DNA of 64,000 bases from a virus (Duplodnaviria > Caudoviricetes), in the IMG/VR virus record IMGVR_UViG_3300015608_005401, positions 10,686 to 74,685 of that record; one strand, given 5' to 3'. The notes below the pieces were generated by a model. The model saw only the letters and a list, made by a program, of their open reading frames with translations. It was not told where the DNA came from and made no database searches. A program made the position numbers and the translations under genes. This document shows positions 38,844-64,000 of this stretch, piece after piece (position 1 is the first letter of the stretch; each line of letters begins with the position of its first letter).

Positions 38844-38913
38844 GAGGGGATAACATAATGGTAGTGTACCGGGCGGAAAACCGGTAGTGTTAGTTCGATT
38901 CTAGCTCCCTTCA
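38844..38913 (+). tRNA. Phe-like tRNA with an 8-nt anticodon loop (GCGGAAAA)
   Basis: GAGGGGA/TCCCTTC stem; D and T arms intact. Confidence 0.55.
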
Positions 38914-38921
38914 CTACAAAT

Positions 38922-55859: not shown

Positions 55860-55937
55860 ATGACAACTATTACTAACATAGCGTATTATTATGAGGGTGA
55901 GCAAAGCTCAAACGTCAGACTAATGTCTATGTCGTAA
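55860..55937 (+). CDS. attenuator leader peptide L3 (MTTITNIAYYYEGEQSSNVRLMSMS)
   Basis: TAT TAT TAT GAG GGT GAG core, upstream of Glu and Tyr tRNAs. Confidence 0.8.
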   Translation: MTTITNIAYYYEGEQSSNVRLMSMS

Positions 55938-55959
55938 TGGTGTCATTATGATATTAACT

Positions 55960-55996
55960 AACCCAGTCTGACTTATCAGACTGGGTTTTTTGTTTT
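55960..55996 (+). terminator. attenuator terminator T3
   Basis: AACCCAGTCTGA-CTTA-TCAGACTGGGTT then TTTTGTTTT. Confidence 0.9.
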
Positions 55997-56013
55997 AAAG
56001 TTCTTTGAAAATT

Positions 56014-56100
56014 GGGAGTATAACGTCAGCGGCATGTTAGAGCCGCCCCTGAACAAATAGACGTATAGAGGTAACTTGTGTGCAAATCCAGGTACTCCCA
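56014..56100 (+). tRNA. tRNA-like element lacking a conventional D-arm; 8-nt loop ATGTTAGA
   Basis: GGGAGTA/TACTCCC stem, GTGCAAATC T-loop-like segment, ACGTC/GACGT helix enclosing the anticodon arm. Confidence 0.45.
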
Positions 56101-56107
56101 CAAATAT

Positions 56108-56179
56108 GGTCTCGTCGACTAATGGTCAGGTCACCACCCTTTCAAGGTGTAGATGCGGGTTCGATCCCCGTCGAGACTA
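56108..56179 (+). tRNA. tRNA-Glu(TTC)
   Basis: Loop CTTTCAA, canonical cloverleaf. Confidence 0.9.
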
Positions 56180-56186
56180 CAAATAT

Positions 56187-56272
56187 GCTACGGTATGCAA
56201 ACCGGAATAAGCAACCAGACTTTCAATCTGGACATCGAAAGATGTGTGCGGGTTCGAGCCCCGTCCGTAGTA
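56187..56272 (+). tRNA. long-variable-arm tRNA with a TTC (Glu) anticodon
   Basis: GCTACGG/CCGTAGT stem, A73, CCAGA-CTTTCAA-TCTGG, ACATC-GAAA-GATGT variable arm. Confidence 0.8.
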
Positions 56273-56279
56273 CAAATTT

Positions 56280-56362
56280 GGGGATGATGTGACACAGGTA
56301 GTTACACTGGTCTGTAAAACCAGAGCCTTCGGGCGTTGTGGGTTCGAGTCCCAGCCCCACCA
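56280..56362 (+). tRNA. tRNA-Tyr(GTA); 3' side about 3 nt short
   Basis: CTGGT-CTGTAAA-ACCAG, variable arm GCC-TTCG-GGC, ends in CCA. Confidence 0.7.
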
Positions 56363-56365
56363 AAT

Positions 56366-56438
56366 GATGCCATCGACTAACGGCTGAGGTCATCACCCTC
56401 TCAAGGTGAAGATACGGGTTCGAATCCCGTTGGCATTA
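56366..56438 (+). tRNA. tRNA-Glu(CTC)
   Basis: TCACC-CTCTCAA-GGTGA. Confidence 0.9.
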
Positions 56439-56547
56439 CAAATACCTATATTAAAATGGCAAGACCTTTCGATTATAACCCAAGTGGTGCTACAATTTCA
56501 GGTTGTATTTGAAAATAATAATTTAACTACTTTAATTTATAAAAATA

Positions 56548-56609
56548 TTTGACAAGAATAAAAAAAAGTTGTATATTTGTATCAACAAAGAAAGAAAACT
56601 TAATATATA
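56548..56609 (+). promoter_or_regulatory. tandem promoters of tRNA operon 4
   Basis: TTTG..TATATTTG (56572-56579) and TTAATATATA (56600-56609). Confidence 0.7.
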
Positions 56610-56616
56610 GATTATT

Positions 56617-56697
56617 ATGACAAAAGTAAATAACATAGGAATAGCGATTATAGGAGGCGGCGCGGGAGCGTATGTCACTGGCTGGAGTATGTTGTAA
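56617..56697 (+). CDS. attenuator leader peptide L4 (MTKVNNIGIAIIGGGAGAYVTGWSML)
   Basis: 12 consecutive Ile/Gly/Ala codons, upstream of Ile, Ala and Gly tRNAs. Confidence 0.85.
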   Translation: MTKVNNIGIAIIGGGAGAYVTGWSML

Positions 56698-56722
56698 ACT
56701 TTTCTAAAAAGATATTATAACT

Positions 56723-56756
56723 AAACCCAGTCAGAAATGATTGGGTTTTTTGTTTT
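56723..56756 (+). terminator. attenuator terminator T4
   Basis: AAACCCAGTCA-GAAA-TGATTGGGTTT then TTTGTTTT. Confidence 0.9.
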
Positions 56757-56760
56757 ATAT

Positions 56761-56850
56761 TGGCGAGTAGCAGTGGTGTCTTATAAACACTATACCTGTA
56801 GCGGTAACTTGAGATAACTTCAAACATGGGTTCAAATCCCATCTCGCCAA
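56761..56850 (+). tRNA. tRNA-Ile(TAT)-like, no conventional D-arm, long variable region
   Basis: TGGCGAG/CTCGCCA stem, GGTGT-CTTATAA-ACACT, ATGGG-TTCAAAT-CCCAT. Confidence 0.65.
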
Positions 56851-56856
56851 CAAATT

Positions 56857-56930
56857 GGGCCATTGGTGAAGAAGGCTATCACACTTGGTTTGCACCCAGG
56901 AGTCACGAGTTCGAAGCTCGTATGTGTCCA
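56857..56930 (+). tRNA. tRNA-Ala(TGC)
   Basis: Loop TTTGCAC, G3:U70, one bulged base in the acceptor stem. Confidence 0.8.
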
Positions 56931-56992
56931 CAACTGAGAAAACAGTAAATCGTGAGTCAACACTAAAACCATCCCACCAGGATGTAAAACTC

Positions 56993-57067
56993 GCAACATT
57001 GGTGTTTAATGGTTTAGCACATTGCGCTTCCAACGCAAAGGTGCCTGTTCGAATCAGGTATGTTGCT
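56993..57067 (+). tRNA. tRNA-Gly(TCC)
   Basis: TTGCG-CTTCCAA-CGCAA, U73. Confidence 0.9.
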
Positions 57068-57117
57068 CTGAGTAAGGGGTGTCGAACTTTTTAATATATA
57101 ATATTAAAAGGATAGAT

Positions 57118-57864
57118 ATGTTGCACATAATTTATAAAATTACAAACCTAAAAAATGAAAAAATATACATAGGTAAACATTCATGTGAAGACATTAATGA
57201 TGAATATATGGGTAGTGGTAAACTTATAAAAAGAGCAATAAAAAAATATGGAATAGAAAATTTTAAAAAAGAAATTCTTTATACTTTCTATGACGAGATC
57301 GAAGCATATAAAATGGAAAAAAATATAGTAAATGAAGATTTTATAAAAAGAAAAGATGTATATAATGTGATAATTGGTGGGGATCCATTCGAATCAATCA
57401 ACTCAAATGTTGAACTCAGAAAGGAGAAAAATAGAAGAGCAGTCATATCGATGAATAAAATAATATGGAATGATGAAGGAGAAAATAATAAAGAAAATGT
57501 TTACAAAAGTAAACTAAAATGGGTGGGTAAAAATCCACATATAATTTCTTGGAGAAATTTATTAAAAAATAGTCTAAAAAGACTAAATACTAACAAAGGA
57601 TCATCAACAATTAATCTATTAGGATATAGCGCAGAGGATTTAAAATATCATATATCTAGTTTATTTACACCAGGAATGAGTTGGGAAAACTACGGAGAAT
57701 GGCACATCGATCATATAAAACCAGTTTGTTCATTTGATTCTAACACCCCAGTTAGTATTGTCTGTGCTTTATCTAATTTACAACCTCTATGGGCAACAAC
57801 AAGAGAAATAGATGGTATTATCTATGAGGGAAATTTAAATAAAAACAAATTTTATCAAAATTAA
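57118..57864 (+). CDS. chimeric GIY-YIG plus HNH-type endonuclease
   Basis: IIYKITNLKNEKIYIGKH..YMGSG N-terminus; MSWENYGEWHIDHIKP..LSNLQPLW C-terminus. Confidence 0.7.
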   Translation: MLHIIYKITNLKNEKIYIGKHSCEDINDEYMGSGKLIKRAIKKYGIENFKKEILYTFYDEIEAYKMEKNIVNEDFIKRKDVYNVIIGGDPFESINSNVELRKEKNRRAVISMNKIIWNDEGENNKENVYKSKLKWVGKNPHIISWRNLLKNSLKRLNTNKGSSTINLLGYSAEDLKYHISSLFTPGMSWENYGEWHIDHIKPVCSFDSNTPVSIVCALSNLQPLWATTREIDGIIYEGNLNKNKFYQN

Positions 57865-57870
57865 ATATTT

Positions 57871-58080
57871 CTATGTAGTATCCGAGTTTGTGTTTCTTGA
57901 ACCAAAATATCCACCAACAATACCAATTAGACCAGTAATTGACATTTGCAATAGCTGGATTATATCATCAATTGGTCTTTTTTCCTGTAAAGAAACCCAA
58001 AAGTCACCTAATACTATAATAGTAAGTAAAGTCATAACACCACCAACCATTATAAAAACCATTCTATCTTTACTTTTCAT
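57871..58080 (-). CDS. small two-TM membrane protein
   Basis: Two hydrophobic helices, GIVGGYFGS. Confidence 0.6.
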   Translation of the reverse strand: MKSKDRMVFIMVGGVMTLLTIIVLGDFWVSLQEKRPIDDIIQLLQMSITGLIGIVGGYFGSRNTNSDTT

Positions 58081-58699
58081 TATCTTTATTAAATATTTTT
58101 TCTAAATACATATAAATATATTTTCTATATCTATTTATTATTTTTTCATCACAGTATTTTTTAATATCATGCCATAGATGACCTGCTTGACCACCAATTC
58201 CTCTTTGTAGCTTTTCCATACCAGACTCTACACTTCTTGTTACTTTAGATAATTCACTAGCAATAGTAAATGAAAAAGCCATCACTTCTTCTTTATTTGA
58301 AAAGTAAGATTTTCTATCTAACGGACTTGGTAGTTTATAATCAATAATTCCTTTTCTTAAACTTTGTTCAGCATGAACTCTTTCGTGTCCAATAATATCT
58401 AACATAATTTCTTTGAAGTTTGGTATAAATCTAGCAGCATTTGCATCCACCAAAACAAACATTGGTTTTTTTCTGATAGGATTAAAAAGAGCAAAGAAAG
58501 GAACGCCTTGTCTTGGTGGTGCTGTTTTTTTATTTTCTTCACTTAATGAATTATAAAAATCATCATAATTAACAACATCAAAGCCATTTCTATTTCCAAA
58601 CTCAACCGCAGACTCAAAAGAGTTTACAGGAGCATTATCATCTATTTTAGAAGGTATAATAACCGCTTCAAATAATTCAAACTTTTTTAGGTATTTCAT
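58070..58699 (-). CDS. hypothetical protein, capsid-targeting-like N-terminus, HExxH motif
   Basis: MKYLKKFELFEA; IIGHERVHAEQ...EVMAFS. Confidence 0.6.
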   Translation of the reverse strand: MKYLKKFELFEAVIIPSKIDDNAPVNSFESAVEFGNRNGFDVVNYDDFYNSLSEENKKTAPPRQGVPFFALFNPIRKKPMFVLVDANAARFIPNFKEIMLDIIGHERVHAEQSLRKGIIDYKLPSPLDRKSYFSNKEEVMAFSFTIASELSKVTRSVESGMEKLQRGIGGQAGHLWHDIKKYCDEKIINRYRKYIYMYLEKIFNKDNEK

Positions 58700-58780
58700 A
58701 AATTATATATTAATTTTGTAAAATAAAAATAAACTATCGCAGAAACAAATAACATATTTATTGGTCAGTACTGGGAATCC

Positions 58781-59395
58781 TTGAATAAATTAGGACTACC
58801 ATACTATCTTTATCTTGGTGATGAACTAGTAATAGTAGTCAATATAGAAAAAAGAAAAAGGAAAAATGGTGCAAAAATAGATCAGGTTTATTATACTTTA
58901 GAAGATGGTACAGTAAAACATGCTTCGTTCTTTAAAAAAGTAGATATTAAGTTAATTAAAAGAGATTTTATACTAAATAATTATTGTAGTGATAAAAATC
59001 TTAAATTAACTATTGGTAGAACTGAATTAAAACCAGAGTCAAATAAAGAAAAGATTTGGTCAGATTTAAGATATGAGTTCTTTTCTCAATTCGACTTTCC
59101 TATTATGACTTGCCATCATTTAGATGATTGTGTTGAGACATATTTATTTTCTTGCCTACGAGGATTTCAATCTGTTATTCCTTATTCAAAAGCTAATATA
59201 ATTCGACCTTTTTTATTAAATGAAAAGTCCGTCTTTGAAAGATGGTGTAAACAAAAATCGGTTCCATTCATAAAAGATGAATCTAATGATTGTTTAGATT
59301 ATTCAAGAAACAGAATTAGACATAAAATTGTACCGGAGGCTTTACTTGTAAATCCTGGTTTGAAAACAGTTGTTAAAAAAATGATTAAATTATAA
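58781..59395 (+). pseudogene. tilS: TilS (tRNA-Ile lysidine synthetase) C-terminal part fused to an unrelated N-terminus
   Basis: LRYEFF, CHHLDDCVETYLF, IIRPFL, DESN..YSRNRIRH present; SGGxDS PP-loop absent. Confidence 0.7.
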
Positions 59396-60051
59396 TGGAG
59401 TTATTTCACTTTGATATAGAAACGGCTGGTCAATATAAAGACTATGACTCACTTTTAGATAGTGATGAAAGAGGTGCTAGACTTTTTTCATCTAAATATG
59501 AGAAGATGGGTTGGTCAGATAAGTACAAAGATATAAATGAGGCTTATCAAGAAAATGCTGGTATTATTTCTACTTACGGTAGAATTGTTTGTATTTCTTT
59601 TGGTTATGAACTAAACGGAGAAAAACACATAAGATCTTTTTATGGCGATGATGAAAGAGATATTGTTGATTCATTTAATAACTTATTAAAGAAAATAGAA
59701 ACAAAAATCTTTAGTTTATCTGGCTTTAGAATTAATCACTTTGATATTCCTTGGGTTCTTCATAAACTTCACAAGTATGAAATTGAACCGGCTAATATGA
59801 TTTATGTATATGATAAAAAGCCTTGGGATATGAGAATTGTTGATATGTCTGATGATTGGAAACAAAAATTTGCTTGGGCATTTTCATTTGACGAAATGTG
59901 TTATGAATTAGGTGTAAAATCACCAAAAGATAACATGAATGGATCAGACGTACATAAAGCTTATTGGTCTGGTAAAATTGAAGCAATAAAAACATACTGT
60001 GAAAAAGATGTTAGTTCATCAATTGATGCTTCTAAAAAGTTGTACAAATAA
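59395..60051 (+). CDS. DnaQ/PolB-like 3'-5' exonuclease
   Basis: HFDIETAG (ExoI), NHFDIPW (ExoII), YCEKDV (ExoIII). Confidence 0.85.
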   Translation: MELFHFDIETAGQYKDYDSLLDSDERGARLFSSKYEKMGWSDKYKDINEAYQENAGIISTYGRIVCISFGYELNGEKHIRSFYGDDERDIVDSFNNLLKKIETKIFSLSGFRINHFDIPWVLHKLHKYEIEPANMIYVYDKKPWDMRIVDMSDDWKQKFAWAFSFDEMCYELGVKSPKDNMNGSDVHKAYWSGKIEAIKTYCEKDVSSSIDASKKLYK

Positions 60052-60097
60052 TAATTTTTCCTTATCTTTGTCATGTTAATCACTAAAACAAAAAAAT

Positions 60098-60238
60098 ATG
60101 GCAAAGATTAAAGAAATCTACATGGAAATTCAAGAGAAACTTGGTGAAGAAGTTGAAATTACTGAGGAGATATTTCATCAACATCTAGTTGAAAAAGGAA
60201 TTATAAAAGAAACTAAAAACTCTGATGAAGAAGAGTAA
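60098..60238 (+). CDS. 46-aa acidic protein, absent from the ORF track
   Basis: MAKIKEIYMEIQEKLGEEV..; TATCTTTG promoter before it and a terminator after it. Confidence 0.55.
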   Translation: MAKIKEIYMEIQEKLGEEVEITEEIFHQHLVEKGIIKETKNSDEEE

Positions 60239-60242
60239 TTAA

Positions 60243-60271
60243 GACCCATCGAAAGATGGGTTTTTTGTTTT
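60243..60271 (+). terminator. intrinsic terminator
   Basis: GACCCATC-GAAA-GATGGGTT then TTTTGTTTT. Confidence 0.85.
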
Positions 60272-60319
60272 AAAGAGCCGTTGTATATACAAATATATAC
60301 TTGTAAAAATAGGTATAAA

Positions 60320-60508
60320 ATGGCAGCACCAAAAGACAAAATGTTTTCACTACGAATACCTGAAAAGCTACTAGAAGAGTATAGGTTATTTTGTGAGGAA
60401 AATTCTATTAATATTTCTAAAAGATTAAGAAAGTTTATTGAGAGAGATTTAGAATCTTGGAGAGCAAGAAAGCTTCAACAACAAAAAAATAATAATTCTC
60501 AGTCTTAA
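60320..60508 (+). CDS. ribbon-helix-helix regulator
   Basis: MAAPKDKMFSLRIPEKLLEEYRLFCEENSINISKRLRKFIE. Confidence 0.7.
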   Translation: MAAPKDKMFSLRIPEKLLEEYRLFCEENSINISKRLRKFIERDLESWRARKLQQQKNNNSQS

Positions 60509-60518
60509 TATATAGATT

Positions 60519-61073
60519 ATGATAAAAAATTACTCACAATTTATAAAAGAAGATTATTCAGATATTAAATCTGATTTAATTAAGTATATAGATGATAATA
60601 AAAATGATATCGAATCTAAAGGTTTAGAATTTAATGAACTAAAAGATGATATGACATTTGTCATAGAAAAACTTGATTCTGACTTTTTAAAAAAAATAAA
60701 CCTAGAACTGTCAAGTATAGATGTTGATAATAAAGTTGAATTTCAACATAAATTTGAAGAGGTTATTAAATCAATTATAGAAGAATTAGGCAAATCACAA
60801 TTAAATGAAGGTTTAGTTTCATTTTTTAAATCAATATGGAATGAAATTAAAAAAGCAGTTAAATGGATATCTGATAGAATATACACAATTTCTGGATATC
60901 TAACAATTGGATTGGCTGGTTTGCTATTTATAATCAATCAATGGGGTCCTGGACTATATATGCCATATGAATTTGGTAATGTGGCTTTGAACACTGTATT
61001 AGCAATTGGAATTGCTGTACTAAAATACGGTCAAAAAAATGACAATTATATAAAAAACATAAGTGAAATATGA
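60519..61073 (+). CDS. membrane protein with a T4-IP-like N-terminus
   Basis: MIKNYSQFIKED; internal LNEGL repeat of the xxE motif; two C-terminal TM helices. Confidence 0.65.
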   Translation: MIKNYSQFIKEDYSDIKSDLIKYIDDNKNDIESKGLEFNELKDDMTFVIEKLDSDFLKKINLELSSIDVDNKVEFQHKFEEVIKSIIEELGKSQLNEGLVSFFKSIWNEIKKAVKWISDRIYTISGYLTIGLAGLLFIINQWGPGLYMPYEFGNVALNTVLAIGIAVLKYGQKNDNYIKNISEI

Positions 61074-62802
61074 AACACATTAGAAACTTTGAAAAATTTA
61101 AAGAGAAAAGAAATCAAGTAATATCCGAAAAGGCAACTAATCACTACTATAAATTAGGTAAATCTTGTAATAAATCTATTTTTGAAATGGAATTGTTATC
61201 TGAGGGATATTCAGTTGAATTTGTTAATTCTGTTAATGAAAGTTTACAATTTTCTAAAATCGACAATAAAATAATTGATTGTGTTTGGGAATACCTTCAA
61301 GAAGGAACTGAAACTAAATTAGATTTACTAACAGAAGAGTTAACTGTTTTTGGTAAACAACTTCCTACTCTTGGTGATATGTATAAAGGAGTAACTAATG
61401 TTATAGATAAAGGTATTGAAATAGGTAAGTCTGCTATTGGTAGTTTTAAGGATTTCATTAAAAATATTGGAAATATTGTTAAAAATCTTTTCTCTAAAAT
61501 TAAAGCTTTCTTTGCTAAAGTTTGGGAAGCATTTAAACCTAAATTAACTGCTGCTATGGGTGTTATTAAAAAAGCTGTAGGTGGTGGTTCAACTGATAAA
61601 ATGAAAGGTGCTATTGACGCAATGGCTAGTGATGGTGGACAAAAAGAAATTGGTACTTTATCTGAAGATCTTTCTAAAGTTTGTTCAAAATTTTCAACTG
61701 GAGATGTTGGTAATATGTCAGAAGAATCAGCAAAACATTTACAAGATGAAGCTGGTGAATACCAAGGTATCGAAGGTGATGCTGATATTGAAAAATTAAT
61801 GTCAGAATCATTAGAAAGAAAAGGATCGGTTGAAAAGATATATTATTCAATAAAAGGTTTCTTATTTGAAGGTGGTAAAATTGATGAATTAGATGCTATC
61901 TTTGAAGCAGAAGAAACAAAGATTGAATTAAAAGAAGGTGATAAAGTAACATATACTAATAAAGAAGGTAAAGAAGTAACTAAATCTATAATTAGAATTG
62001 ATGGTGATAACGCTGTATTCAAAAGTGATAAAGATGGTAGTGAATTTACAAAGCCAGTATCTGATTTGAAAAAATCAGAAGGTGCTGGTAAGAAAATATT
62101 ATCTGGATTTGTTGGTGAAGAACCAGAGAAAAAAGGAGTATTTGGTTGGCTAGTTGAAGCTGTTGGATCTTTGTATTTAATCCACTTGTTAAACTTAAAG
62201 AAACACTTATAAAAGGTGGTACTAATGGAATATGTATGATGATTTCAGCTATGGCTAGAGGATTAAAAAATATGGCTAAATACATTGTTATTGGTGTTAT
62301 AGCTGGATTAGTTTATCACATAGTACATGGTCTTATGACACTTACTGGTGGTGGTCACGGTGAAGGTCACGGTGAGAAAGGACATGAAGCTGGGTCTGAG
62401 GCAGCAGAAGCTGGAGCTGAGGCGGCTAAAGGTGGAGTAGCTGATGCTGCTGCGAAAGCTACTTCAAAAATTAACTTAGCAAAAGAGTCTTTCGGTATAA
62501 ATGAATCTGAAGCAGCATTGGCTGTTGATATGAATAAAACAACATCATATACAAATGGAATTTTTGATATTGCTAAAAAGGTTGCTTTACCAGTTGTTGG
62601 AGGTCTTTTAATGGCGGCATTATCACACTTTTTCCCAATAGTACATACAATATTAGAAGCTATATTAGTTTCAATTGGTATATTTGAGTTAGTTGGTGCT
62701 GTTTGTACAATAGAGTCAATTAAAAGTAAGAACTTAAAAATTTGTACACTTCAACACAGTGCTCACCATTTCATAGAAGGTGGTGTAGGTGGTGGACACT
62801 AA
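61070..62802 (+). CDS. large capsid-targeting-like protein with a frameshift near 62170
   Basis: MKHIRNFEKFKE; the frame after WLVEAVG continues as FVFNPLVKLKETLIKGG into ORF 62236-62802. Confidence 0.55.
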
Positions 62803-62931
62803 TTAAAAATAACTTACTAAATGCTAATAAATTTGGTGAATTGAAAATCTCACCGTATATTTGTAAAACAATTGGGAAAGGCAACGATTTAGATACAACT
62901 CTCAATTATTTTTACAAATTTTAGAAAAAAA

Positions 62932-63004
62932 TTAGGTAGATTTAAAACTTTTATCTATATTTGTATAAAATAAGTCAAAAGGGACAAAAAACTTTTAATA
63001 TATA
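62932..63004 (+). promoter_or_regulatory. tandem promoters of tRNA operon 5
   Basis: TTAGG..TATATTTG (62956-62963) and TTAATATATA (62995-63004). Confidence 0.7.
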
Positions 63005-63009
63005 CTACA

Positions 63010-63117
63010 ATGACAACAATGAATTTAAATATGAACATGAATCTAACAGTGGTGCTTAATACGTTATGTATTAGACGCTCTGAGGGCTTCGTCATATCTA
63101 AACGATTTGTTGGCTAA
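63010..63117 (+). CDS. attenuator leader peptide L5 (MTTMNLNMNMNLTVVLNTLCIRRSEGFVISKRFVG)
   Basis: Five Asn codons upstream of two tRNA-Asn genes; ATT and AGA codons match the Ile(GAT) and Arg(TCT) genes. Confidence 0.8.
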   Translation: MTTMNLNMNMNLTVVLNTLCIRRSEGFVISKRFVG

Positions 63118-63147
63118 TGTGAAACAAATTATATAAAGGATAAATCG

Positions 63148-63180
63148 AAACCCTCAGACAAAAAATCTGAGGGTTTTTTT
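63148..63180 (+). terminator. attenuator terminator T5
   Basis: AAACCCTCAGA-CAAAAAA-TCTGAGGGTTT then TTTT. Confidence 0.9.
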
Positions 63181-63207
63181 ATGTCCCTATAAAAATAAAA
63201 AATATCT

Positions 63208-63281
63208 TCCTCGGTAGCTCAGTTGGTTAGAGCATCTGACTGTTAATCAGAGGGTCGCTGGTTCGAGTCCAGCCCGGGGAG
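63208..63281 (+). tRNA. tRNA-Asn(GTT)
   Basis: TCTGA-CTGTTAA-TCAGA, G73. Confidence 0.93.
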
Positions 63282-63291
63282 CAAAAATAAA

Positions 63292-63376
63292 CGGTAGGTA
63301 CCCGAGCGGTCTTCAGGGACTAGTCTGATACACTAGGTGAGAAATCACGACGTGGGTTCAAATCCCACCCTACCGA
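63292..63376 (+). tRNA. long-variable-arm tRNA with a GAT (Ile) anticodon
   Basis: CGGTAGG/CCTACCG stem, A73, CTAGT-CTGATAC-ACTAG, GTGA-GAAA-TCAC variable arm. Confidence 0.8.
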
Positions 63377-63382
63377 CAACAT

Positions 63383-63454
63383 TCACTGGTAGCTCAGAGG
63401 CAGAGCAGGCGCCTGTTAAGCGTTAGGTCGGGATATCGTAATTCCCCCAGTGAG
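63383..63454 (+). tRNA. tRNA-Asn(GTT)
   Basis: Loop CTGTTAA, G73, atypical T-loop ATCGTAA. Confidence 0.8.
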
Positions 63455-63459
63455 CAAAT

Positions 63460-63538
63460 GCCCCAGTAACCGAGGTCGCCTTCTAAGCGACTAATCGTAA
63501 CGGAGTTGAAAATGTAGGTTCGAATCCTACTTGGGGTA
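63460..63538 (+). tRNA. tRNA-Arg(TCT)-like, no conventional D-arm, long variable region
   Basis: GCCCCAG/TTGGGGT stem, GTCGC-CTTCTAA-GCGAC, GTAGG-TTCGAAT-CCTAC. Confidence 0.65.
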
Positions 63539-63598: not shown

Positions 63599-64000
63599 AT
63601 GAAAGTTTGTAAAAAATGCTTAATTGAAAAGGAAATAGAAGATTTTTCTTTTAAGGATAAAAAAGTTGGAAAAAGGCAAGCTTATTGTAAAGAGTGTTTT
63701 ATTTCTTTAAGAAAAGAATCTTATAAGAAAAATAAAAATCACTATTTAGGAAAAGCAAAAAATAGAAAAAAAGAAATAGTAGATTGGTATGTAGAAATTA
63801 AAAAAACGATGAAGTGTCAAAAGTGTGGATTTTCACATCCAGCAGCTTTAGATTTTCATCATAAAAATGAGAATGAAAAAGAATATGATGTATCTCAATT
63901 AGTGAGAAATGGTAACAAAGATAAAATATTAAAGGAGATAGAAAAATGTATCATTTTATGTTCAAATTGTCACAGAATACATCATTATGAAAATGAATAA
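63599..64000 (+). CDS. HNH homing endonuclease
   Basis: CKKC..CKEC zinc finger; CQKCG..LDFHH..CIILCSNCHRIHH. Confidence 0.85.
   Translation: MKVCKKCLIEKEIEDFSFKDKKVGKRQAYCKECFISLRKESYKKNKNHYLGKAKNRKKEIVDWYVEIKKTMKCQKCGFSHPAALDFHHKNENEKEYDVSQLVRNGNKDKILKEIEKCIILCSNCHRIHHYENE

What the first reader, a model, noticed from the sequence alone, without database searches (positions are those of the whole stretch)
56014..63538. Three tRNA-like genes share a rearranged topology: D-stem equivalent encloses the anticodon arm
The elements at 56014-56100, 56761-56850 (Ile TAT) and 63460-63538 (Arg TCT) have perfect acceptor stems and recognisable T arms (intact in two, imperfect at 56014), but only 7-8 nt between acceptor and anticodon arm. 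In each, the bases after T8-A9 can pair with a segment 3' of the anticodon arm (ACGTC/GACGT; GCAG/CTGT; ACCGA/TCGT with a bulge). A GG dinucleotide then appears in the linker before the T arm, where it could replace D-loop G18G19. This could give the same L shape with a different strand order. Recurrence in three isotypes, and cognate codons in the leaders (ATA, AGA), argue against simple decay.
Basis: partly seen in the sequence, partly recalled or inferred. Interest (0 to 1): 0.7.

Follow-up and report, generated by a model that had tools for sequence, protein, structure and literature searches.

The report
Phage tRNAs with re-threaded D-arm
Two of the three odd genes are very probably working isoleucine and arginine tRNAs of a giant phage whose D-arm parts are joined in a different order from the universal cloverleaf. 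The third is a tyrosine-tRNA relative of the same build with an abnormal anticodon loop.

Summary
56761-56850 (anticodon UAU) and 63460-63538 (UCU) have 7-bp acceptor stems, canonical T arms and canonical anticodon arms. No D hairpin exists: a 3-bp helix (CAG/CTG, CGA/TCG) encloses the anticodon arm and is followed by T-A-R-Y-G-G. Rfam's tRNA model scores both about 35 bits with the D arm deleted; ARAGORN misses them.

They are not local accidents. I collected 53 distinct Ile(UAU) and 67 Arg(UCU) genes of this build from phage contigs, cultured phages (unannotated there) and six bacterial assemblies, at least one in a prophage.
- The enclosing helix covaries (98% paired).
- RNAalifold predicts the helix unaided.
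- The purine after T-A covaries with the base before the T stem in 120 of 120 genes, like the R15-Y48 tertiary pair. A blind test of this gave 14 of 14 (6 Arg, 7 Ile in the filtered counts; the 14th is outside the filter).
- The base after GG is A in 6 of 6 Arg genes where the pattern left it free, and never A in Ile.

So the strand order differs but the core is probably the same L shape. Charging and decoding are untested.

56014-56100 belongs to a Tyr-derived family with a covarying 5-bp enclosing helix. Its anticodon loop has 8 nt (6 in close relatives) and the gene is deleted in one relative, so it is doubtful as a decoder.

This scan reported the same class before on other DNA. I found no paper describing it.

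The parts
56761..56850 (+). Re-threaded tRNA-Ile(UAU) gene, 90 nt, first gene after the Ile/Gly/Ala leader and terminator
   Evidence: Rfam RF00005 34.8 bits with the D arm deleted. Model R1 39.1 bits. Member of the 53-sequence alignment A4.
56771..56773 (+). Element 2, 5' strand of the enclosing helix (CAG; stands for D-stem 23-25). G56770 lies opposite T56799.
   Evidence: Columns 11-13 of A4 pair with columns 37-39 in 98.1% of cells; 2 of 3 pairs show double changes.
56775..56791 (+). Element 2 anticodon arm GGTGT-CTTATAA-ACACT, anticodon TAT
   Evidence: The stem covaries in A4.
56796..56804 (+). Element 2, 3' strand of the enclosing helix (CTG), then T13-A14-G15-C16-G18-G19
   Evidence: G15 (56801) pairs in the Levitt sense with C56825.
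56805..56825 (+). Element 2 linker with an optional small hairpin (TTGA-GATAACT-TCAA), ending in C48
   Evidence: The same hairpin insert is present in 11 of the 53 aligned members and absent in the rest. The last base covaries with R15.
56826..56842 (+). Element 2 T arm ATGGG-TTCAAAT-CCCAT
63460..63538 (+). Re-threaded tRNA-Arg(UCU) gene, 79 nt, last gene of the Asn/Ile/Asn/Arg array
   Evidence: Rfam RF00005 34.7 bits with the D arm deleted. Seed of model R1, 99.6 bits. Member of an Arg set of 67 genes.
63471..63473 (+). Element 3, 5' strand of the enclosing helix (CGA). C63470 lies opposite T63498.
63475..63491 (+). Element 3 anticodon arm GTCGC-CTTCTAA-GCGAC, anticodon TCT
63495..63504 (+). 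Element 3, 3' strand of the enclosing helix (TCG), then T13-A14-A15-C16-G18-G19-A20
   Evidence: A15 pairs with T63513. A20 is present in every Arg member where the pattern left it free.
63514..63530 (+). Element 3 T arm GTAGG-TTCGAAT-CCTAC
56014..56100 (+). Tyr-derived tRNA-like gene with the same nested topology, first gene after the YYYEGE leader and terminator. Its anticodon loop is abnormal.
   Evidence: Homologues in G001, G002 and L191, and a Tyr(GUA) form in G006. No Rfam hit. Only a remnant in LR756502.
56023..56027 (+). Element 1, 5' strand of the enclosing helix ACGTC
   Evidence: Pairs with 56060-56064. The fourth pair is T-A (window, G001), T.G (L191) and C-G (G002).
56029..56046 (+). 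Element 1 anticodon-like hairpin GCGGC-ATGTTAGA-GCCGC (8-nt loop)
   Evidence: The loop has 6 nt in the three closest relatives.
56060..56074 (+). Element 1, 3' strand GACGT, then the linker ATAGAGGTAA containing GG
   Evidence: GGTAA is conserved in the four close relatives.
56075..56092 (+). Element 1 T-arm-like hairpin CTTG(T)G-TGCAAAT-CCAGG with one bulged base
   Evidence: Read. The same bulge occurs in all four relatives, with compensatory changes in two pairs.

Best explanation
Elements 2 and 3 are genes for elongator tRNAs, Ile reading AUA and Arg reading AGA. They fold into the usual L shape from a three-way junction instead of a cloverleaf.

Proposed fold:
- After U8-A9 the chain runs straight into the strand that normally forms D-stem positions 22-25, then into the anticodon arm.
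- After the anticodon arm and a 2-4 nt bulge comes the strand equivalent to positions 10-13.
- That strand is followed directly by a D-loop (A14, R15, Y16, G18, G19, N20) and a short linker ending in Y48, then a normal T arm.
- The 3-bp D-stem equivalent stacks on the anticodon stem as usual.
- U8-A14, R15-Y48 and G18G19 with the T loop rebuild the core and the elbow.

The genes lie in processed tRNA arrays behind codon-matched leader-terminator switches. They serve a genome in which AGA is 84% of Arg codons and ATA is 42% of Ile codons.

Shown: the gene family, the helix, the tertiary-pair covariation and the isotype-specific position 20.
Inferred: the L shape, processing, charging and decoding. 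What selective advantage the re-threading gives is unknown. Possibilities are escape from host tRNA-directed nucleases, or neutral drift that an intact core tolerates.

Element 1 is a Tyr-derived relative with a 5-bp enclosing helix. It keeps its fold but has an abnormal anticodon loop, so it is most likely a decaying or non-decoding copy.
For: Recognition by the tRNA model:
- RF00005 hits both genes above threshold, with only the D arm missing.

Homologues:
- They occur in at least 9 huge-phage contigs near this genome.
- Wider scans of phage contigs gave 53 distinct Ile(UAU) and 67 Arg(UCU) genes.
- Cultured Brevundimonas and Vibrio phages carry unannotated Arg(ACG) members.
- Six bacterial assemblies carry Arg(UCU) members.

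Enclosing helix:
- Ile: 98.1% paired against 77% in shuffles. Pair types seen are CAG/CTG, CGG/CCG, CGA/TCG, CGT/ACG, CAT/ATG and CTC/GAG.
- Arg: pairs 24-11 and 23-12 hold in 66 and 64 of 67 genes. A subfamily with G25.G10 gains an A22-T13 pair instead.
- RNAalifold predicts the same helix on a MAFFT alignment.

Tertiary and identity signals:
- R15-Y48 holds in 53 of 53 Ile (46 G-C, 7 A-U) and 67 of 67 Arg (61 A-U, 6 G-C). The minority classes were fetched by patterns that left position 48 free.
- T8 A9 is invariant.
- Position 20 is A in 6 of 6 Arg genes fetched with it left free and never A in 53 Ile genes. A20 is the main ArgRS identity base in E. coli (my knowledge).
- The Ile discriminator is A in 46 of 46.

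Gene context:
- The genes share the CAAAT-type spacers of neighbouring ordinary tRNA genes.
- All five complete bacterial copies encode CCA after the discriminator.
- The leader before element 2 has ATA three times and only Ile, Gly and Ala codons at positions 7-18.
- Codon use in the window's ORFs favours AGA and ATA.
- The syntenic gene in LR745206 has the same acceptor stem but a cloverleaf body.
- In G001, the closest near-complete relative, the re-threaded gene is the only UAU tRNA in the arrays I scanned.
Against: - There are no expression, processing, charging or decoding data for any member.
- G10-C25, usual in cloverleaf tRNAs, is not kept. Position 10 is mostly C or T.
- 22.13 is usually a Y.T opposition, so the helix has only 3 standard pairs.
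- Single-sequence MFE folding does not predict the helix for elements 1 and 2.
- Several genomes also carry a cloverleaf isoacceptor. Examples are Arg(UCU) in LR745206 and G001, and Ile(UAU) in LR756502. The re-threaded copy is therefore not demonstrably needed.
- Some copies are decaying, such as L114 1414-1492, which has a broken T loop.
- GG and A14 were fixed by my scan patterns. Their invariance rests on the 12 members found by a scan that did not require them.
- The sequences are related, so shuffle controls overstate significance.
Confidence: 0.7

Rival explanations
1. They are conserved, folded tRNA look-alikes that are not used by the ribosome. They might act as decoys or sponges for host tRNA-cleaving defence nucleases, or as ligands for phage enzymes.
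For: - No functional data exist.
- Cloverleaf isoacceptors coexist in several genomes.
- The isotypes involved (Arg, Ile, Tyr) include known targets of tRNA nucleases (my knowledge).
- Element 1 keeps its fold while its anticodon loop drifts. That pattern fits a shape-only role.
Against: - The anticodon loops of the Ile and Arg families are strictly tRNA-like: 7 nt, U33, purine 37, fixed anticodons.
- Position 20 and the discriminator follow isotype rules.
- In G001 the re-threaded gene is the only UAU tRNA found.
- The leader before element 2 is written in ATA codons.
Confidence: 0.15
2. They are D-armless tRNAs of the mitochondrial kind. In this reading the short pairing merely lengthens the anticodon stem, the molecule has no D-loop/T-loop core, and the GG is incidental.
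For: [quoted passage not shown]
Against: - That mitochondrial tRNA has a remodelled T loop and no tertiary core. Here the T loop is canonical.
- A14 is invariant and GG sits at D-loop spacing.
- R15-Y48 covaries in 120 of 120 genes, including the blind test.
Confidence: 0.08
3. They are decaying pseudogenes, local deletions or assembly artefacts.
For: - The ortholog in LR745206 is a cloverleaf.
- One Ile(GAU) copy in LR745206 has a broken T loop.
- Element 1 is reduced to a remnant in LR756502, and its anticodon loop length varies among close relatives.
Against: For elements 2 and 3:
- More than 100 distinct genes of the same build come from independent assemblies and cultured phages.
- Compensatory changes occur in all four helices.

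This rival remains a serious possibility (about 0.4) for the decoding function of element 1 only.
Confidence: 0.04

Closest known systems
Canonical bacterial and phage class I elongator tRNA-Arg(UCU) and tRNA-Ile(UAU) (Rfam RF00005). Examples: the cloverleaf Arg(UCU) at L002 2065-2136 and Ile(UAU) at L001 2915-2988 of LR745206.
   Same: 7-bp acceptor stem, U8 A9, 5-bp anticodon stem with a 7-nt loop, canonical T arm, A14, R15-Y48, G18G19, Y11-R24, and A20 in Arg. Same place in tRNA arrays. In one case the same acceptor stem at the syntenic locus.
   Different: There is no D hairpin between positions 9 and 26. The D-stem strands lie on either side of the anticodon arm and the D-loop follows the anticodon arm. 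The fold is a three-way junction, not a four-way one. G10-C25 is not kept.
D-armless mitochondrial tRNAs, e.g. human mt-tRNA-Ser(GCU) (PMC9427863) and nematode mt-tRNAs (PMC7609411)
   Same: No D hairpin. Bases after the acceptor stem pair with bases 3' of the anticodon stem and lengthen that helix.
   Different: The mitochondrial forms have lost the D-loop/T-loop core and have aberrant T loops. The phage genes keep a D-loop-like segment, a canonical T loop and the 15-48 covariation. They are not organellar.
Class II tRNAs (Leu, Ser, bacterial Tyr) with a long variable arm
   Same: A long stretch (15-34 nt) lies between the anticodon arm and the T arm. Some members carry a small hairpin there.
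   Different: Class II tRNAs have a normal D arm. Here the extra stretch is itself the D-stem strand plus the D-loop.
Circularly permuted and split tRNA genes (Cyanidioschyzon, Nanoarchaeum)
   Same: The gene order of tRNA parts differs from the textbook order.
   Different: In those cases the mature tRNA is a normal cloverleaf after processing and ligation. Here no such processing is implied, and the RNA itself would have the new connectivity.
Re-threaded phage Arg, Ile and Tyr tRNA classes noted earlier by this scan on other DNA (unpublished notes e1-124062, e1-5632148, e1-4040102 and others)
   Same: The same architecture and the same isotypes.
   Different: New here:
- three isotypes in one huge-phage fragment behind codon-matched leaders
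- a blind test of the 15-48 pair
- copies in bacterial assemblies
- a cloverleaf ortholog at the same locus
- a Tyr-type copy with a drifting anticodon loop

Membership tests
tRNA (Rfam RF00005, cloverleaf) | Score at or above the gathering threshold of 29 bits | tested here: met
   34.8 bits (56761-56850) and 34.7 bits (63460-63538). Not met for 56014-56100, which has no hit at E<=10.
tRNA (Rfam RF00005, cloverleaf) | D arm hairpin (positions 10-25) between A9 and the anticodon arm | tested here: not met
   4-5 nt stand in place of 15 model positions in both alignments. The same holds in all homologues.
tRNA (Rfam RF00005, cloverleaf) | 7-bp acceptor stem, 5-bp anticodon stem with a 7-nt loop (U33, R37), and a 5-bp T stem with a TTCRA loop | tested here: met
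   Met for elements 2 and 3, and all covary. Element 1 has an 8-nt loop and a bulged T stem.
tRNA (functional definition) | Processed, CCA-tailed, aminoacylated and used in decoding | not testable with these tools
   Only indirect signs are available: array spacers, CCA encoded in the bacterial copies, A20 in Arg and a codon-matched leader.
Re-threaded-core phage tRNA class (unpublished; this scan) | Helix enclosing the anticodon arm, kept by compensatory change | tested here: met
   For element 1.
Re-threaded-core phage tRNA class (unpublished; this scan) | The 3' helix strand is followed by T-A-R-Y-(N)-G-G, and R covaries with the base before the T stem | tested here: met
   120 of 120 genes, with the minority classes fetched blind. 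For element 1 this is inconclusive: its linker ATAGAGG has no purine at the position expected for 15.
D-armless mitochondrial-type tRNA | Loss of the D-loop/T-loop tertiary core, with an aberrant T loop | tested here: not met
   The T loop is canonical, and GG, A14 and the 15-48 covariation are kept. Contrast with PMC9427863.
Class II tRNA | Long variable arm together with a normal D arm | tested here: not met
   There is no D arm.
Permuted or split tRNA gene | The 3' half is encoded upstream of the 5' half, or on another locus, with processing motifs | tested here: not met
   The acceptor 5' and 3' strands, the anticodon arm and the T arm are in normal order in one gene.

The most novel reading that the evidence does not exclude
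A widespread natural family of bacterial-type (phage-borne) tRNAs works in translation with a non-cloverleaf connectivity. The two D-stem strands flank the anticodon arm and the D-loop follows it, yet the canonical L-shaped core is rebuilt. At one locus this build and the cloverleaf have replaced each other, so tRNA topology would be evolvable without loss of function.
Probability: 0.6. Interest if true: 0.85.

Novelty: new variant of a known kind. Interest (0 to 1): 0.75.

Why it matters
- The cloverleaf is treated as universal for cytoplasmic-type tRNAs, and gene finders, annotation pipelines and tRNA-seq mappers assume it. A large conserved family that keeps the three-dimensional core but threads the chain differently would show that only the L shape is constrained, not the connectivity.
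- It would add missing Arg and Ile (and perhaps Tyr) decoders to phage tRNA counts.
- It would give tRNA engineers a natural scaffold, possibly orthogonal to enzymes that read the D arm.
- It would raise a testable question: whether re-threading protects phage tRNAs from host tRNA-directed defences.
- Cultured phages carry members, so the claim can be tested directly.

Tried and rejected
- Single-sequence MFE folding recovers the enclosing helix only for element 3. It is not informative for the others.
- A MAFFT alignment mixing Arg and Ile members misaligned the 5' part. I therefore aligned the isotypes separately (A2, A4).
- A relaxed structural scan gave mostly noise in AT-rich DNA. I replaced it with a stricter scan and with anchored parsing that does not use the helix.
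- The first IMG/VR pattern returned 109 stretches. Only 6 IMG/VR loci held real genes, 5 of them distinct sequences (L062, L082, L084, L088, L089, L097).
- BLAST of element 1 and of the G006 Tyr form against GenBank phages found nothing.
- I considered an intron or an excised anticodon hairpin. I rejected this because removing the enclosed part leaves no anticodon.
I rejected it on helix geometry and because A14 directly follows the 3' strand.
- The hit at window 42651-42736 from my first scan is an ordinary class II Ser(GCU) gene, not a re-threaded one.
- Literature searches and the 2020 review of non-canonical tRNAs gave no description of this build.
- tRNAscan-SE and R-scape are not available here.

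Full report
**Context**

The window is 64 kb of a 74.7-kb IMG/VR fragment. It has 30% G+C. Its nearest relatives are the 635-kb and 642-kb "uncultured phage" genomes LR745206.1 and LR756502.1. A 476-kb IMG/VR contig, G001, is 90% identical over the region tested. The window carries more than 20 tRNA genes in arrays.

**Observation**

- Rfam's tRNA model aligns 56761-56850 and 63460-63538 end to end at 34.8 and 34.7 bits, against a gathering score of 29.
- In both alignments only 4-5 nt stand in place of the 15 D-arm positions, and 31 or 19 nt are inserted before the T arm.
- ARAGORN reports none of the three.
- 56014-56100 has no Rfam match.

The anatomy of elements 2 and 3 is the same:

1. 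acceptor stem (7 bp), then T8 A9
2. 0-1 extra nt, then a pyrimidine or G
3. a 3-nt strand (CAG in element 2, CGA in element 3), then one nt
4. a canonical anticodon arm (CTTATAA, CTTCTAA)
5. one nt plus a 2-3 nt bulge
6. the complementary 3-nt strand (CTG, TCG)
7. T-A-R-Y-G-G, a linker, then a canonical T arm

**Homologues**

- A pattern scan of IMG/VR and the two GenBank relatives gave eight distinct Arg(UCU) genes of this build.
- A structural scan that asked only for acceptor, T arm and an early anticodon hairpin found 12 genes of this build. They comprised Ile(GAU), Ile(UAU) and the Arg(UCU) genes.
- A covariance model built from the Arg set (R1) found Arg(UCG) in LR745206 and further Ile genes in five related genomes.
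- Wider scans gave 46 distinct Ile(UAU) genes and about 60 Arg(UCU) genes.
- Cultured Brevundimonas jumbo phages and Vibrio phages carry Arg(ACG) members inside annotated tRNA arrays. These members are themselves unannotated.
- A scan of one genome per prokaryote species found six real Arg(UCU) copies in bacterial assemblies: Rhizobiales, Bryobacterales and Saccharibacteria.
- One of these lies beside a phage tail-protein gene and one beside an HTH_3 gene. All five complete copies encode CCA.
- ARAGORN finds 7 of 52 Ile members and 2 of 67 Arg members, and only 5 and 0 with correct ends.

**The enclosing helix**

I located the helix strands from the anticodon loop and the TARYGG motif alone, not from pairing.

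- In the Ile set, 97.8% of helix positions pair, against 76.7% (sd 1.9) in shuffles and 33-51% in shifted registers. Eight helix types occur.
- On a plain MAFFT alignment of 53 Ile genes (A4), the tool count is 98.1% paired. One pair is invariant (C-G) and two pairs show double changes in 21 and 20 sequences.
- RNAalifold predicts exactly this helix without guidance.
- In the eight-gene Arg alignment A2 the helix is 100% paired, with double changes in two of three pairs.
- In 67 Arg genes, pairs 24-11 and 23-12 hold in 66 and 64. A subfamily with G25.G10 has an A22-T13 pair instead, so three pairs are kept either way.

**Which strand is which**

The 5' strand runs directly into the 5' strand of the anticodon stem, as positions 22-25 do in a cloverleaf. 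The 3' strand leaves the anticodon stem and is followed at once by A14. So the 5' strand stands for 22-25 and the 3' strand for 10-13. The pair 11-24 is then Y-R in 49 of 53 Ile genes, as in ordinary bacterial tRNAs. G10-C25 is not kept.

**The linker as a D-loop**

- T8 A9 is invariant.
- In the 12 members found without requiring it, the 3' strand is always followed by T-A-R-Y-(N)-GG.
- If R is position 15, it should form the Levitt pair with the base before the T stem. The Arg genes (A15 fixed by my pattern) all had T there, and the Ile genes (G15 fixed) all had C.
- I therefore searched for the opposite classes with position 48 left free. All 7 real Ile genes with A15 have T. All 7 Arg genes with G15 have C, one of which falls below the acceptor filter used for the counts below.
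- Totals: Ile 46 G-C and 7 A-U; Arg 61 A-U and 6 G-C. There are no exceptions.
- Two nearly identical Ile(GAU) genes differ by exactly this double change.
- The base after GG is A in the G15 Arg genes, where it was left free, and T, G or C but never A in 53 Ile genes. A20 is the main ArgRS identity base in E. coli (my knowledge).

**Context that bears on function**

- The genes sit 4-10 nt from their neighbours, with the same CAAAT-type spacers as the ordinary tRNA genes.
- Element 2 is the first gene behind a leader peptide MTKVNNIGIAIIGGGAGAYVTGWSML and a terminator. The operon holds only Ile(UAU), Ala and Gly genes.
- Element 3 closes an Asn/Ile/Asn/Arg array behind a leader rich in Asn that contains I-R-R.
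- AGA is 84% of Arg codons and ATA is 42% of Ile codons in the window's long ORFs.
- In G001 the re-threaded gene is the only UAU tRNA in the arrays I scanned. Arg(UCU) there has both a re-threaded and a cloverleaf copy.
- In LR745206 the gene behind the orthologous leader has nearly the same acceptor stem (TGGTGAG against TGGCGAG) and the same T stem, but a normal D arm. The two builds have therefore replaced each other at one locus.
- LR756502 has both builds.

**Element 1**

- Its close relatives (G001, G002, L191) share the 5-bp enclosing helix. The fourth pair runs T-A, T.G, C-G across them.
- They also share a GGTAA motif before the T arm and a T stem with one bulged base.
- A more distant form in G006 has a normal CTGTAAA loop (Tyr) and a GCCAC/GTGGC helix.
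- In the close relatives the anticodon loop has 6 nt (ATGTAA, GTGTAA, ACGTAA). In the window it has 8 nt.
- LR756502 keeps only the first 13 and last 6 nt.
- LR745206 has a different D-arm-less Tyr(GUA) gene at that place.
- The fold is under selection or only recently diverged, but ordinary decoding is doubtful.

**What is known**

- The closest secondary structure in print is human mitochondrial tRNA-Ser(GCU). [quoted passage not shown]
- The 2020 review of non-canonical tRNAs lists no phage case and no re-threaded D arm (PMC7609411).
- Five literature searches found none.
- Earlier notes of this scan describe the same Arg, Ile and Tyr classes on other DNA. They also found no paper. I treated these notes as leads and repeated the tests here.

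**Verdict**

- The class is real, conserved and mostly phage-borne.
- Function in translation is probable but unproven.

Noticed in passing
window 55860-56010, 56617-56755, 63010-63185: Each tRNA array is preceded by a short ORF and an intrinsic terminator. The ORF codons match the tRNAs downstream: YYYEGE before Tyr and Glu, I/G/A before Ile/Ala/Gly, and Asn x5 with I-R-R before Asn/Ile/Arg. This looks like leader-peptide attenuation of tRNA operons. Other reports of this scan cover it.
   Followed up: partly
window 56187-56273 and 63292-63377; L360 and L361 (G001): Normally class I isotypes occur as 83-88 nt genes with a long variable arm, next to ordinary copies. In the window these are Glu(UUC) and Ile(GAU). 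In G001 they are Lys, Thr, Met, Gln and Asn.
   Followed up: no
window 56280-56362: A class II tRNA-Tyr(GUA) gene is missed by ARAGORN and by RF00005 at the gathering score. It appears only as a 28-bit tRNA-Sec match.
   Followed up: no
window 42651-42736: A class II tRNA-Ser(GCU)-like gene lies between annotated Ser genes. Neither ARAGORN nor the Rfam gathering search lists it.
   Followed up: no
window 38844-38914: A tRNA gene is called with an 8-nt anticodon loop (ggaa). G001 has similar calls with 4-base and 2-base anticodons.
   Followed up: no
L001 1876-1946 (LR745206): The first gene after the Tyr/Glu leader is a roughly 70-nt Tyr(GUA) gene. It has a 12-nt loop in place of the D arm and an extended anticodon stem, a third non-cloverleaf build.
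   Followed up: no
L001 2915-2988 (LR745206): The cloverleaf ortholog of element 2 has an unusual T loop, ATCGTTA, in place of TTCAAAT.
   Followed up: no
L174 about 1560-1590 (LR756502): Only a remnant of element 1 is left (GGGAGTATAACGT joined to TCCCAC), i.e. an internal deletion of the gene.
   Followed up: partly
window 57119-57865 and 63600-64000: ORFs directly after the two tRNA arrays read by eye like homing endonucleases: a GIY-YIG-like N terminus, and a Cys/His-rich HNH-like ORF. I did not test them.
   Followed up: no
window 58740-59396: An ORF between the arrays reads by eye like part of tRNA(Ile)-lysidine synthase (TilS; an HHxDD..ET motif). If real, the phage has a second route to AUA decoding. 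I did not test it.
   Followed up: no
L184, L186, L187, L189, L190 (bacterial assemblies): Re-threaded Arg(UCU) genes occur in Rhizobiales, Saccharibacteria and Bryobacterales assemblies, all with CCA encoded. The one in Allorhizobium lies beside a phage tail-protein gene.
   Followed up: partly
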